A DNA stretch of 46,690 nt from the IMG/VR virus record IMGVR_UViG_2718218402_000006. One strand, given 5' to 3'. Shown piece after piece: positions 39,001-42,000 of the stretch. Source of the stretch: a virus (lineage: Duplodnaviria; Heunggongvirae; Uroviricota; Caudoviricetes). Position numbers: made by a program. The first letter of the stretch is position 1. Every line of letters starts with the position of its first letter.

Positions 39001-42000
39001 TAAAAATTAGTCATATCACGCTTTGATTTGTTGAGCTTTTCACAACGCAAAAGCCCCAGCGTTTTCAGACTTGCAAATGCGCGTTTTAACGTTGACTCTG
39101 ACCAGAACGGGAACTGTTCCAGCCATTGTTCTGTTGTGTTATAAATCCAGCGAACACCATCACATTCCATGCCGGAACCGGTATCTCTCAACCAGTAATG
39201 CAGCTGCTGCAACACGATGGCTTCGTTCAGACCAATTTTCATCGCCAGCTGCGTGTTTATAACCAGCGGGCGTTCAGCAAAAAGGAGCTTCATCCCCTCC
39301 CCCAGAACACGTTATCAATGCGCCACCACGGCATTTCCCGCCGGACCACCACGATTCATCTGATTGAAACCAGCAATTACCACCGCGACAAGTTCATCAG
39401 CGTCTCTCACCAGTCGTTCATGCGTATCCACCAGTTCCCGAAAATAATCGGAACTGTGGCTGCGCATCCAGGCCACCAGCGGAGGTGGCATTGCCTTTTC
39501 GATCGCTGGTAACAAAGCCTGAATTTTTTTAACCGCATCAGGGGTGTCTTTCTCCACCCAGCGGAAAATTTTCTGAGTATTGCGAGCCAGGGCTTCCGGA
39601 TGGCTGTCGTCATACAGTTCCGGGAATGTCATACCCAGCTCAAAATAAGCCCGGGTTATTTCAGCTGCCGGAACTTTTTCACCGTCCGGACGCGCCCAGG
39701 CATTCATCGCCATGCGGATGTGTTCATGCTTGATTTTCATGAATCATTTGCCTCTTGATGCTTCGGGTATGATCGTTTTTGTCATTTGGTTGCTTCATCG
39801 ACATATTCTGCGAATAACATGACGAACGTCGTAAGTATGACCAGTCAACATCAGGACGAAGTTCTTCACACAGGACTCCACCTTTTGTTGCTCGTTCAAT
39901 CGCTGGACATCTCTCGGCAGGCAACCGACGTACACCTTTGATCCATTGATTTACGCTTGGAGGCGATACCCCTAAAAGTCTGGCCATTGCTGATTGCCCA
40001 CCAACAACAGCACAAGCTCGTTTGAATGAATAGTTCTCTTTTTTCATCGAATGAACTCCAAAAAACACACAATGATATTAGGCGACGCCTAATATCATTG
40101 TCAATAGGCTATGCCTAACAACCAAGAGGTAGGGATTGCCTAATGCAATGCACATAGGAGACTATTAAGCAATGCTTAGTGGTAAAGACTTAGGCCGAGC
40201 GATAGAGCAGGCCATTAATAAAAAAATTGCATCAGGAGCCGTCAAATCAAAGGCGGAGATCGCACGCCATTTCAAAGTCCAACCACCATCAATCCATGAC
40301 TGGATTAAGAAAGGTTCGATAAGTAAAGATAAACTTCCAGAACTATGGCGTTTCTTTTCTGATGTGGTTGGTCCAGAGCATTGGGGGCTTAACGAATACC
40401 CCATACCAACCCCTTCCTGCTCAGATTCAAAAAGAGAACTTTTAGACATAAACAGCCTTTATCAAGCCGCTTCTGATGAAAAAAGAGCAATTGTAGCCTT
40501 CCTCTTATCTGGAAATGCTGCGGAGCCTGGTTGGGTTGATTATGACGTTCGCGCCTACATTACTGCAATGGAAATGAAGGTAAGTAACTATCTGAAAAAT
40601 CAAGAATCAGAACGGAAAAGCCAGAACATCACCAAAACGGGAACTTAAACTTATATGGTCCGACGGGAAGCACCTAGATCCCGTTATTTAGCTCCCATTA
40701 CCTCTTCCACATACCATCGCCTATTAGGTTGTGCGCAAAAAGCATTAGGCATAGCCTATTGACAAGTAATTAGGCATTACCTATAGTTTTCTCATACCAA
40801 CCCACCCCGCCCCACAGAATGCAGGGCAATACTTTGAGTTACCAGGCAGTGGTCAGGGGGTAAGTAGCCAGCCCGAGGCGTAAGAACATGACGGCAGGGT
40901 TCAACTTTAATAACTATGCAGCAGGTTTTTGTTCCGCTACCCCGGCGTTAAGGGGAAATGAGGTCAACATGGATATGCTCAATCTTGGCAACAACGAATC
41001 TCTGGTATGTGGCGTGTTCCCCAACCAGGACGGCACGTTTACCGCGATGACGTATACCAGAAGCAAAACGTTTAAAACTGAAGCTGGCGCGCGTCGCTGG
41101 TTAACCAGAAACACTGACTGATGAGGTTGACGATGGAATTTAAAGATTTACCAGTACCATTCCAGGAAATGGCATCGAATGTGGTTCGCTCTCAACTGGC
41201 GACTCTTGACCTGAGTACCGTAGAAAAAGAAACCATCGATACTATATCCGGTAACGTGCGTCGTGCCTTTATAGGTCTGTATGAAGAGAAGCGCCTATTC
41301 GGCGGACAGAATTCGCCTGAAAACAAGAATCAAGCAAATGATGAGAAGCTGAAACACATTATCGCCTTACTTTTGGAAGACGCAAAACGTCTACAGCAAC
41401 TGGAACCAAATGCAGGCACAGAGGCCCGCATTTGGATTGCCATGAAATCACTCAAATGTGAAAGCAGTGATTATTTCAAAACAACAATTAAAACTACTCA
41501 ACTTTCGGGAGAGCTACTGAAGAAATTGCCATAAGAGCATGGTCTTTCTCTTGTTCTGCAAGATGAGCATTAATACCTGGTATGGTTTTTTCAAATTTAT
41601 CTATCTGTTGAATAACAACTTCGCGGTATACGTTTGTTTTTGTACCACCAAGCGCAGCCGTTAATGCAGAAAGCATATTTAGTATCATATCAGTGCGATA
41701 TGAAAGAATCCTGATAGCTTCATCTTGTTTTTCAATAATAGATTGCAGGGCCTCAATTTGCTTTTTATCCATTTCACCCTCCTGAGGGTTGGTAATTAAG
41801 GAGTTCTCCACGGGTCAGGTGGAGTGCGTGCGCCGGACACGGGTGAACATCCGGCACTGACAGTTTACTGAAAGGATATGTCCCTGAAAAGTCAGGGCAT
41901 AACGCGAAAGCGCACGGCGAAATTGGTCTCTCTATACGGTGTCGTTAAATTTAGTTCGACCGTGCGCTTCCGGTTGTGGCACTCCGCGAAATGGCGCGGC

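What the first reader, a model, noticed from the sequence alone, without database searches (positions are those of the whole stretch)
41121..41772. Convergent overlapping ORF pair in the early-left region
A 137-aa plus-strand ORF and a 92-aa minus-strand ORF (good AGGAGG RBS) overlap at their 3' ends by ~40 nt. Only one may be real; an opposite-strand gene inside the early-left operon would be a cargo insertion.
Basis: seen in the sequence. Interest (0 to 1): 0.35.

Follow-up and report, generated by a model that had tools for sequence, protein, structure and literature searches.

The report
Antisense small-gene slot in prophage early operon
Both overlapping genes are real: the minus-strand one is one of many interchangeable small genes placed behind a conserved RNA leader, antisense to a prophage's early operon, at the position where phage lambda keeps its exclusion gene sieB; what the proteins do is still unknown.

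Summary
A + ORF (41121/41133-41534) and a 92-aa - ORF (41494-41772, AGGAGG RBS) converge and overlap by 41 nt. "Only one may be real" is wrong. Both have homologues (PHROG 1363 and 18692), both are called in RefSeq, and both are under purifying selection (dN/dS 0.08-0.36) between E. coli and Salmonella copies.

The locus is a Qin/Rac-type dicBF early-left operon. The - gene is AT-rich cargo, absent from close relatives. It is one of at least 12 unrelated small ORFs that start 55-60 nt after an invariant hairpin. That hairpin belongs to a conserved 87-nt leader with three hairpins, the last pairing an anti-SD with the SD. The slot matches that of sieB in lambda and Rac.

The + gene is a modular early gene: a constant "MEFKDLP" head plus a variable tail. 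The tail found here recurs as a stand-alone 71-aa gene beside the Salmonella cargo homologue, again with a 41-nt overlap.

Most likely this is a lysogen-expressed moron, coupled by convergent transcription to an early gene that may be its cognate partner. Protein functions are unknown: no Pfam, PADLOC, PDB or Foldseek match was found. I rate it a new variant of a known kind, of moderate interest.

The parts
40759..40787 (+). pL-like early-left promoter (TTGACA-17-TATAGT), flanked by palindromic operator-like TAGGCATAGCCTA / TAGGCATTACCTA
   Evidence: 11 of 12 consensus match. Sequence shown. It lies just downstream of the cI-like ORF 40172-40648. Function is inferred.
40969..41121 (+). ydfA-type DUF1391 gene, first gene of the early-left operon (the maximal ORF starts at 40888)
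   Evidence: Pfam DUF1391, 4.7e-28. RefSeq CDS on identical DNA.
41133..41534 (+). 133-aa early-left gene. It has a constant MEFKDLP head (residues 1-55, 41133-41297), a disordered linker (56-71), and an A-type tail module (about residues 69-133, 41337-41531).
   Evidence: PHROG 1363 over the full length; separate PHROGs match the head and the tail. RefSeq WP_001339605.1. Head pLDDT about 82, linker below 50. The tail equals the stand-alone 71-aa Salmonella gene. Tail dN/dS is 0.16-0.36.
41494..41534 (.). 41-nt convergent 3' overlap, encoding ...ISSVALPKVE* on the - strand and ...TQLSGELLKKLP* on the + strand
   Evidence: The same 41-nt overlap occurs in L004-L007, L010 and L014-L017. The substitution pattern shows that the cargo frame is the constrained one: 31 against 9.
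41494..41772 (-). 92-aa cargo gene (subfamily A). Predicted soluble three-helix protein; AT-rich.
   Evidence: PHROG 18692, 5.9e-63. RefSeq WP_000358771.1. dN/dS 0.08-0.28. AlphaFold pLDDT 80. Maximum KD(19) 0.93, so no TM segment. GC 36.9%.
41770..41856 (-). Conserved 87-nt 5' leader of the cargo gene. HP1 is at 41855-41832, HP2 at 41824-41806. HP3 pairs the anti-SD CTCCT (41803-41799) with the SD AGGAG (41783-41779). The ATG is at 41772-41770.
   Evidence: 90.4% of cells are paired against 34-44% when the partner is slid. There are compensatory changes in HP2 and HP3, and U.G wobbles on this strand. The MFE fold recovers HP1 and HP2. Cargo ORFs start 55-60 nt after the HP1 motif.
41862..41890 (-). 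Putative sigma-70 promoter of the cargo gene: TTTTCA (41890-41885), 17 nt, TAAACT (41867-41862), ending 5 nt before HP1
   Evidence: It is retained in most copies, and a TAnnnT hexamer is kept at the same place even where the upstream DNA is unrelated. It scores 8 of 12 to consensus, below the threshold of the scanner. It is inferred; no transcript data were found.
41891..42104 (.). Distal conserved non-coding blocks between the cargo promoter and DicF. They are shared with Salmonella loci and with the kilS/sieB intergenic region of Rac. Strand and role are undetermined.
   Evidence: No Rfam match.
42105..42156 (+). DicF sRNA
   Evidence: Rfam RF00039, 76.7 bits, E 2.5e-16.
42331..42519 (+). 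dicB (cell-division inhibitor), downstream in the same early-left operon
   Evidence: Pfam DicB, 6.9e-40, on residues 36-97 of ORF 42226-42519. RefSeq dicB on identical DNA.

Best explanation
Both ORFs are genuine protein-coding genes in the early-left (pL-like, dicBF-type) operon of a lambdoid prophage.

The 92-aa minus-strand gene is a horizontally exchanged moron. It is one allele of a variable small-gene slot that lies antisense to the early operon, at the position sieB holds in lambda and Rac. It is probably transcribed from its own weak promoter (TTTTCA-17-TAAACT). The transcript starts with a conserved 87-nt leader whose third hairpin masks the Shine-Dalgarno, so translation is gated.

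The 133-aa plus-strand gene is the second gene of the repressor-controlled early operon. It consists of a constant head, a flexible linker and an exchangeable tail, and it ends 41 nt inside the cargo gene.

Because the two genes converge, their expression should be reciprocal. In the lysogen pL is off and the cargo is made. On induction or infection, pL transcription runs antisense through the cargo gene and its leader and shuts the cargo off, by polymerase collision or by duplex RNA, while the + protein is made.

The A-type tail travels with the A cargo across E. coli and Salmonella, so the + protein's tail plausibly acts on the cargo protein as a cognate partner.

Shown here: gene reality, the allelic slot, leader conservation and structure, positional equivalence to sieB, and the linkage statistics. 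Inferred: the promoter, the expression pattern in the lysogen, antisense silencing, any protein-protein relation, and any exclusion or defence function.
For: Gene reality:
- Homologues were found.
- dN/dS is 0.08-0.28 for the cargo and 0.16-0.36 for the tail.
- RefSeq calls both CDSs.

Cargo slot:
- The gene is absent in Tritos and K-12 and additive to ydfB/ydfC in XDL.
- GC is 36.9%.
- At least 12 unrelated small ORFs start 55-60 nt after the invariant hairpin; 71 of 137 instances have no ORF.

Leader:
- 90.4% paired, with compensatory pairs in HP2 and HP3 and U.G wobbles on the cargo strand.
- Fold z-score is -1.62 on the cargo strand against -0.49 on the other strand.

Promoter-like element.

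sieB precedent: Rac sieB is opposite-strand and overlaps the DUF1391 gene ydaF by 4 nt. lambda sieB abuts N.

Pairing:
- The Salmonella A cargo (71-74% identical) sits beside a stand-alone 71-aa A module with the same 41-nt overlap.
- The B-type tail core is homologous to an insert in the partner of the Salmonella D cargo (E 7e-8).
- In 5,426 E. coli genomes the A cargo is in 126, with both parts together in 123; the A tail is in 167.
- In IMG/VR all 50 intact A cargos have a partner ORF ending at the same 41-nt overlap. Five frameshifted cargos keep an intact partner. The reverse was never seen.
Against: - No transcript, TSS or proteomic evidence was found for either gene.
- The promoter matches only 8 of 12 consensus positions and was not called by the scanner. 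No terminator follows the cargo gene.
- Neither protein resembles any characterised family or fold.
- Pairing is not obligatory. D-type cargos in L014-L016 have partners that lack the module. The A tail exists without the A cargo. The B-like tail core occurs with two different cargos. The head family exists without any convergent gene in phage PA2.
- Linkage alone could explain the co-occurrence.
- The leader is retained without any cargo in about half of the copies. Part of its conservation may therefore serve the + transcript (DicF precursor) or serve antisense transcription as such.
Confidence: 0.6

Rival explanations
1. The two genes are independent neighbours at a recombination hot-spot. 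They have unrelated functions. The slot lies between two conserved recombination arms, the head-coding DNA on one side and the leader on the other, so whatever sits between them is swapped as a block. The overlap exists only because the + ORF happens to stop inside the inserted cassette.
For: - The constant flanks are the head (present in 1,459 of 5,426 genomes) and the leader/backbone.
- In the overlap the + frame behaves as a passenger, 31 against 9.
- The B-like tail core occurs with two cargos and with none.
- In L078 the cargo was swapped while the + ORF was preserved.
- The PA2 head gene has no partner.
- D cargos in L014-L016 have partners without the module.
Against: - The A cargo and A module stay together, with the same 41-nt overlap, in a Salmonella Rac-like backbone that lacks the head. 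Synonymous divergence there is high (dS 0.7-1.3).
- Homologous cargos (B and D) are paired with homologous partner modules in unrelated backbones.
- There were 0 of 50 intact A cargos without a partner ORF ending at the 41-nt overlap, although frameshifted cargos with an intact partner do occur.
Confidence: 0.3
2. The pair is a toxin-antitoxin-like addiction or abortive-infection module. The 92-aa protein is a growth inhibitor held in check by the masked SD, and the + tail or the antisense + transcript is its antidote.
For: - SD sequestration in a structured leader is typical of type I toxin mRNAs (general knowledge); the leader structure is shown.
- The Salmonella L017 partner carries a bona fide HTH_3 domain (30.5 bits) with faint MqsA-antitoxin similarity.
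- One alternative cargo marginally matches the type V antitoxin GhoS (21.2 bits against a cutoff of 21).
- There is an asymmetry of loss: the cargo decays while the partner is kept.
Against: - There is no match to any TA family. The RelB-like hit scores 15.9 bits against a cutoff of 50. PADLOC found nothing significant.
- The genes are convergent, not an operon.
- The putative antidote lies in a repressor-silenced operon, so it would be absent in the lysogen, exactly when the toxin gene is on.
- The cargo is not hydrophobic.
Confidence: 0.08
3. One of the two ORFs is a spurious open frame on the antisense strand of the other.
For: Only the a-priori rarity of long convergent overlaps. The last 13 codons of the + ORF do behave as a by-product of the cargo frame.
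Against: - Outside the overlap each ORF shows frame-specific purifying selection.
- Each has a full-length PHROG family.
- Each occurs without the other in some genomes.
Confidence: 0.02

Closest known systems
sieB of lambda, Rac and P22 (superinfection exclusion / abortive infection gene)
   Same: It sits in the same place and orientation. It is a single gene on the strand opposite to the pL early-left operon. Its 3' end meets or overlaps the 3' end of an early gene: lambda sieB 34482..35036 against N c35037..35438, and Rac sieB overlapping the DUF1391 gene ydaF by 4 nt, with an sRNA and a kil gene beyond. From general knowledge, it is present in some phages and not in others, and it is expressed from the prophage.
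   Different: - There is no sequence relation: no Pfam SieB hit.
- The cargo here is 92 aa and soluble, with no TM segment, against 162-184 aa (489- and 555-nt CDSs); SieB as a membrane protein is from general knowledge.
- Rac sieB lacks the HP1 leader motif.
- No exclusion phenotype has been tested here.
Morons of lambdoid phages (Hendrix/Juhala concept; general knowledge)
   Same: It is an extra gene present in some but not all close relatives. Its base composition is atypical (36.9% GC). It appears to be an independent transcription unit embedded in a phage operon.
   Different: - Here the promoter and leader are a conserved, fixed platform that stays in place even when there is no cargo (71 of 137 copies).
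- At least 12 unrelated ORFs alternate behind it at a fixed distance.
- No terminator of its own was found for the A cargo.
Prophage defence genes with cognate self-immunity (BstA/aba, PMC8585504; P22 SieB/Esc, general knowledge)
   Same: This is a conceptual match for the cognate-pair reading. A lysogen-expressed gene next to the immunity region is combined with a determinant in the same phage that spares its own lytic growth. Orphan partners are observed here.
   Different: - BstA is a large protein whose immunity element is a DNA site inside its own gene. Here the candidate partner is a protein module in a convergent early gene.
- There is no sequence similarity (PADLOC negative).
- The function is untested.
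Hot-spots of variable antiviral cargo in P2-like phages and P4-like satellites (PMC9122126)
   Same: These are conserved flanks bracketing a slot that holds many unrelated alternative genes in related temperate elements of Enterobacteriaceae.
   Different: - That is a different locus, with large multi-gene defence systems.
- No shared structured leader or fixed RBS distance is recalled for those hot-spots (from memory; not checked here).
- The cargos here are single 57-105-aa proteins, antisense to the early operon.
Convergent-promoter / cis-antisense switches of temperate phages (186 pR/pL interference, P22 sar-ant, lambda oop-cII; general knowledge)
   Same: A lytic transcript and an opposing transcript overlap. 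This predicts mutually exclusive expression through polymerase collision or RNase III cleavage of duplex RNA.
   Different: - Those involve regulatory RNAs or the switch genes themselves.
- Here two protein genes overlap at their 3' ends.
- The interference is inferred, not measured.

Membership tests
PHROG 18692 (minus gene) / PHROG 1363 (plus gene) | Full-length profile match | tested here: met
   5.9e-63 over 1-92 of 92, and 9.5e-45 over 1-131. Both families are of unknown function.
SieB superinfection-exclusion family | Sequence homology to SieB (Pfam SieB) | tested here: not met
   no Pfam family at E<=0.01; exhaustive HMMER finds only 13 relatives, all about 90 aa.
SieB superinfection-exclusion family | Membrane protein with hydrophobic helices | tested here: not met
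   maximum Kyte-Doolittle (19-residue window) is 0.93; the model is three amphipathic helices.
SieB superinfection-exclusion family | Opposite-strand gene inside the pL operon, convergent with an early gene | tested here: met
SieB superinfection-exclusion family | Excludes or aborts superinfecting phage | not testable with these tools
   This needs phage challenge of isogenic lysogens.
Moron | Present or absent among close relatives; atypical composition | tested here: met
   (presence/absence). (36.9% against 52% GC).
Moron | Own promoter and own terminator | tested here: inconclusive
   A promoter-like TTTTCA-17-TAAACT is conserved but falls below the scanner threshold, and no terminator was found. 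A different cargo, in L078, does carry a terminator hairpin.
Type II toxin-antitoxin | Co-directional two-gene operon; homology to known toxin or antitoxin families | tested here: not met
   The genes are convergent. The NCBIfam RelB-like hit scores 15.9 bits against a cutoff of 50. There are no Pfam or PADLOC hits.
Type I toxin-antitoxin (hok/sok-like) | Small hydrophobic toxin peptide plus a dedicated short antisense RNA | tested here: not met
   The protein is 92 aa and soluble. No Rfam antisense RNA lies at the locus. Only the SD-masking leader resembles type I mRNAs.
Known anti-phage defence systems (PADLOC-DB 2.0) | Profile match to a catalogued defence protein | tested here: not met
   only noise (HerA 0.022; BrxA 0.014).
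Known RNA families (Rfam 15) for the leader / ydfC-dicF spacer | Covariance-model match | tested here: not met
   within 39000-43500 only DicF passes; STnc100 (37.7, below 47) and tsr32 are sub-threshold. Nothing maps to 41773-42104.

The most novel reading that the evidence does not exclude
The 92-aa protein and the tail of the 133-aa protein are a cognate pair at a polymorphic arms-race locus, the "sieB slot".

In this reading the small protein is a lysogen-expressed exclusion or abortive-infection effector. Its translation is gated by a conserved SD-masking leader. That leader may be opened or destroyed when a related superinfecting phage transcribes the complementary sequence from its own early operon.

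The partner is an early-expressed self-immunity or anti-exclusion module, carried on a constant head domain.

The dozen alternative cargo/tail combinations behind the same leader would then be a family of uncharacterised miniature defence/counter-defence pairs. They would be present in roughly a quarter of E. coli genomes.
Probability: 0.25. Interest if true: 0.75.

Novelty: new variant of a known kind. Interest (0 to 1): 0.5.

Why it matters
Opposite-strand morons such as sieB are classic. What appears here is a fixed expression platform: a promoter-like element and a three-hairpin, SD-masking leader that are almost invariant across Qin-, Rac- and P2-like prophages of Escherichia, Shigella, Salmonella and Pluralibacter. 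Behind it, at least 12 unrelated 57-105-aa genes alternate, often with a matching variable tail on the convergent early gene.

This gives a simple sequence handle (TGCCGGAT..T.A.C.GTGTCCGGCGCAC, then about 55 nt to the ATG) for harvesting small prophage accessory proteins of unknown function. It also offers a testable model of reciprocal lysogenic/lytic expression next to the toxic dicF/dicB genes.

If the pairs prove to be exclusion/self-immunity pairs, the locus would be a compact new source of phage-phage competition genes. If not, it is a well-defined mosaic hot-spot, and the annotation question of whether both ORFs are real is settled.

Tried and rejected
- **Profile libraries.** Pfam, NCBIfam and PADLOC on both proteins, on 9 other cargos and on 7 partner proteins gave no informative family. 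The exceptions were a threshold-level GhoS match for one other cargo and HTH_3 in one Salmonella partner.
- **Structure.** Foldseek of the 92-aa model against PDB and BFVD gave nothing at E<0.001. An HMM search of PDB sequences gave nothing. The + protein model was too weak in the tail to search.
- **Genome scan.** The one-genome-per-species collection holds no relative of the A cargo.
- **A module against B tail core.** hhalign found no relation: probability 5%.
- **Known sRNA in the conserved spacer.** I asked whether it was AgvB, Esr41 or a Pas sRNA. It is not. Those RNAs are in Rfam or in the late region, and none hit here.
- **Experimental evidence.** I looked for TSS or dsRNA data in the literature and found none.
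- **Rac sieB.** It does not carry the HP1 motif; only the distal blocks are shared.
- **A mistake, corrected.** I first assumed the window was the E2348/69 prophage. Searches show identity starts only at about 40790. The E2348/69 whole-prophage annotation was therefore discarded for everything left of that point.
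Full report
**1. Observation**

The ORF list and the sequence show a + ORF at 41121..41534 (137 aa). 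They also show a - ORF ending at 41494 whose ATG at 41772 gives 92 aa (MDKKQIE...). AGGAGG lies at 41783-41778, five nt upstream of that ATG. The two ORFs converge and share 41494-41534, which is 41 nt.

The + gene most likely starts at the second ATG, 41133 (133 aa). GAGG sits six nt upstream. RefSeq starts there on 100%-identical DNA. Every other copy's homology begins exactly at that ATG.

**2. Context**

The window is a lambdoid prophage read in reverse: structural genes, replication genes and a cro-like gene lie on the minus strand. A cI-like gene, the early-left operon, an exonuclease and an int-sized ORF lie on the plus strand.

The early-left operon is of the Qin/dicBF type:
- a pL-like promoter with operator palindromes at 40759-40787;
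- ydfA/DUF1391;
- the two ORFs of the finding;
- a spacer of about 330 nt;
- DicF at 42105-42156 (Rfam, 76.7 bits);
- dicB, ydfD/DUF1482 and an 835-aa exonuclease.

The interval 41100-41800 is 100% identical to E. coli E2348/69, where both ORFs are annotated as hypothetical proteins. I first took the whole window to be that prophage. That was wrong. Identity begins only at about 40790 and the immunity region differs. I therefore use the E2348/69 annotation only for the identical part.

**3. Both ORFs are real genes**

- The - protein matches PHROG 18692 end to end (5.9e-63). The + protein matches PHROG 1363 (9.5e-45).
- The - family is very small: 22 clusters in the word-indexed search and 13 representatives out of 1.84 billion under exhaustive HMMER. 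It is confined to E. coli and Salmonella. It still contains diverged subfamilies. Salmonella "A" is 71-74% identical, Salmonella "D" is 44-47%, and E. coli "B" is 28% (E 9e-6).
- Nei-Gojobori analysis between E. coli and Salmonella copies gives dN/dS of 0.08-0.28 for the - gene. It gives 0.16-0.36 for the C-terminal part of the + gene outside the overlap. dS is about 0.4-1.3.

**4. The minus gene is cargo in a conserved slot**

*Presence and absence.* Phage Tritos and K-12 Qin have ydfB and ydfC and no such gene between ydfA and DicF. Strain XDL has ydfB, ydfC and also the two-ORF unit. The gene is AT-rich: 36.9% GC against 52% for the window and 59% for its leader.

*Shared leader across cassette types.* Aligning cassette-bearing and cassette-less relatives shows that three different cassette types (A here, B in GN04275, C in PPompW phages) share the same translation-initiation sequence. 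They also share the same upstream backbone.

*Conservation in Salmonella.* The region immediately upstream of the - gene is also conserved in Salmonella loci that have no dicF and quite different backbones. These are Rac-like recET prophages and elements with a P2-like Int/C/Cox region.

In species-representative genomes it occurs only in Escherichia, Shigella and Pluralibacter, plus two probable contaminants.

With the motif oriented forward, 66 of 137 instances have GGAG plus ATG 55-60 nt downstream. These are followed by at least 12 unrelated small ORFs of 57-105 aa. The other 71 instances have no ORF. The 92-aa gene is therefore one allele at a fixed expression platform.

**5. The leader**

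On the cargo strand the 87 nt from 41856 to the ATG form three hairpins:
- HP1 (41855-41832) is invariant and contains U.G wobbles. These would be C.A mismatches on the other strand.
- HP2 (41824-41806) is kept through compensatory changes: CTCCAC/GTGGAG, CCCGAC/GTCGGG, CCCAAC/GTTGGG and CCACACG/CGTGTTGG.
- HP3 pairs CTCCT (41803-41799) with the Shine-Dalgarno AGGAG (41783-41779). It shows an AU-to-UA swap in 6 of 16 sequences.

Overall, 90.4% of cells are paired, against 34-44% when partners are slid. The covariation score is 0.140, against 0.051 in shuffles. The sequences are related, so these controls are indicative rather than probabilistic.

The single-sequence fold recovers HP1 and HP2. 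Its z-score is -1.62 on this strand and -0.49 on the other.

Five nt upstream of HP1 lies TAAACT, with TTTTCA 17 nt further up (41890-41862). Copies whose upstream DNA is unrelated still keep a TAnnnT hexamer at that spot. This is a plausible weak promoter, but it is inferred. It fell below the scanner threshold, and I found no TSS data.

K-12 Qin retains the promoter-like element, HP1 and HP2, and then runs straight into the ydfC stop codon.

The more distal 200 nt is shared with the kilS/sieB spacer of Rac and with no Rfam family. Its strand and role remain open.

**6. Positional precedent**

In K-12 Rac the layout is racR, ydaG, ydaF (DUF1391), then sieB on the opposite strand overlapping ydaF by 4 nt. 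After that come the sRNA KilS and kilR. In lambda, sieB (34482..35036, +) abuts N (c35037..35438) inside the leftward pL operon.

The slot studied here is therefore the sieB slot. The 92-aa protein itself is not SieB. It has no Pfam match and no hydrophobic segment. It is predicted as a soluble three-helix protein (pLDDT 80) with no informative fold neighbour.

**7. The plus gene**

The + gene is modular. Residues 1-55 form a confident helical hairpin, 56-71 are disordered, and the tail is helical at low confidence.

The head DNA occurs in 1,459 of 5,426 complete E. coli genomes, and the whole cassette in 123. The head is fused to many different tails. It also occurs, at about 44% identity, in 933W-like Stx phages. 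In one of these that I inspected, phage PA2, there is no convergent gene.

The A tail (residues about 69-133...LLEDAKRLQQLEPNAGTEARIWIA...) exists as a stand-alone 71-aa gene in Salmonella. There it again converges on the cargo homologue with a 41-nt overlap.

**8. The overlap**

The frames are arranged so that + codon position 2 faces - position 3, and + position 3 faces - position 2.

Among the five distinct A/D overlap sequences, changes that are synonymous for the cargo but not for the + ORF outnumber the reverse by 31 to 9. About 30:28 is expected (the pairwise counts are not independent). The cargo's conserved C-terminus (...SVALPK.E*) therefore dictates the sequence, and the last 13 codons of the + ORF are largely a passenger.

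This explains why quite different partner ORFs (133 aa, 71 aa, and 171-214 aa with HTH_3) all end with a similar ...SEELL... tail.

Even so, when the A cargo was replaced by another cargo in L078, those 13 codons were retained as the end of the + ORF. The intact + ORF therefore seems to be under selection.

**9. Cognate pair or mere neighbours?**

Evidence for a pair:
- The A cargo and A module stay together across E. coli and Salmonella, despite high synonymous divergence and a different backbone.
- The B tail core is homologous (40% identity over 35 aa, E 7e-8) to an insert in the HTH_3 partner of the Salmonella D cargo.
- In complete E. coli genomes the A cargo is in 126, and cargo and tail together in 123; the A tail is in 167.
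- In IMG/VR all 50 intact A cargos have a partner ORF ending at the same 41-nt overlap (49 of them the full 133-aa gene). Five frameshifted cargos keep an intact partner. The reverse was not seen.

Evidence against:
- D cargos in L014-L016 have partners without the module.
- The B-like core occurs with two cargos and with none.
- The A and B modules are not detectably related.
- All the E. coli copies are closely related, so physical linkage may suffice to explain the co-occurrence.

I therefore treat the partner relation as plausible and unproven.

**10. Mechanism I commit to (confidence 0.6)**

This is a lysogen-expressed, translationally gated moron in the sieB slot. It is coupled by convergent transcription to a repressor-controlled early gene.

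When pL is repressed, the cargo promoter fires. Its polymerases also oppose any leaky pL transcription heading for the toxic dicF/dicB genes.

When pL is derepressed, the strong early transcript reads antisense through the cargo gene and leader and silences it, and the + protein appears. That protein's A tail may neutralise or modulate the cargo protein.

What the cargo protein does is unknown. Position, small size, allelic diversity and the asymmetry of loss point to phage-phage competition (exclusion or abortive infection with self-immunity). That is analogy, not evidence. PADLOC finds nothing.

**11. Comparison and novelty**

The closest known things are these:
- sieB, for position and orientation only;
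- morons;
- defence genes with cognate self-immunity (BstA/aba, PMC8585504);
- P2/P4 hot-spots (PMC9122126);
- convergent-promoter switches of temperate phages.

I found no description of this leader or slot in the searchable literature. [quoted passage not shown]

I rate it a new variant of a known kind, with interest 0.5.

Noticed in passing
window 41891-42104; L139 2900-3080; L004 3700-3900: The distal part of the ydfC-dicF spacer has two conserved blocks (...CCGCCATACTTACCGCCGCGCCATTTCGCGGA.TGCCACAACCGGAAGCGCAC... and ...GCGCTTTCGCGTTATGCC...). They are conserved in Salmonella loci without dicF and in the kilS/sieB spacer of K-12 Rac, where they overlap the annotated sRNA KilS. There is no Rfam family. 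Strand and function are unknown.
   Followed up: partly
window 41770-41890 compared with L138 2543-2700 (K-12 Qin) and 71 of 137 motif instances: About half of all copies keep the promoter-like element plus HP1 and HP2 but have no RBS or ORF behind them. In K-12 the leader runs straight into the ydfC stop codon. The element may therefore have a role of its own, such as antisense transcription into ydfABC or a function in the DicF precursor.
   Followed up: partly
window 42154-42363 (+): A sub-threshold Rfam hit to STnc100 (37.7 bits, gathering score 47, E 8.9e-6) lies directly after DicF and runs into the dicB upstream region. A 2026 preprint (10.64898/2026.05.13.724894) relates STnc100 to the EPEC prophage sRNA PasD.
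   Followed up: no
window about 40100-40790 compared with L002: There is a mosaic junction. The window is 100% identical to E2348/69 from about 40790 rightwards, but its cI/cro immunity region is unrelated. The window's cI-like 158-aa ORF (40172-40648) has no Pfam match. Operator-like palindromes (TAGGCATAGCCTA, TAGGCATTACCTA) flank the pL-like promoter.
   Followed up: partly
L058 547-638 and downstream (IMG/VR): One alternative cargo behind the same leader (94 aa, MAKFTVRIELRD...) matches Pfam GhoS, the type V antitoxin endoribonuclease, exactly at threshold (21.2 bits against 21). In this locus ydfA lies 144 nt away and there is no MEFKDLP gene.
   Followed up: no
L078 about 4786-5590: Here the A cargo has been replaced by a 57-aa ORF that has its own GC-rich terminator hairpin (ATATGGGCC...GGCCCATAT TTCT). 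The last 13 codons of the old A cargo survive as the end of the + ORF.
   Followed up: yes
L200-L204 (IMG/VR): The A cargo is a pseudogene here (a 1-nt frameshift leaves a 27-aa ORF), while the convergent 133-aa gene is intact. This is probably one or two independent events.
   Followed up: yes
L014 2526-2613 (-): In the Salmonella P2-like element that carries the D-type cargo, Rfam finds a C4 antisense RNA (77.2 bits) next to a gene with a Derepression domain. This is a P1/P7-type immunity module in the same early region.
   Followed up: no
L145 about 4880-4992 (Pluralibacter gergoviae): This is the most distant host in which the leader motif was found. It is followed by yet another cargo (104 aa, MRTNSLPVFWYKNPEHYDEF...) with no family match.
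   Followed up: no
window 41885-41897 (-): A small hairpin, CCCTGA-CTTT-TCAGGG, overlaps the putative -35 of the cargo promoter. It is conserved in E. coli and in Salmonella L004. It might modulate promoter use, or be part of the + strand RNA.
   Followed up: no
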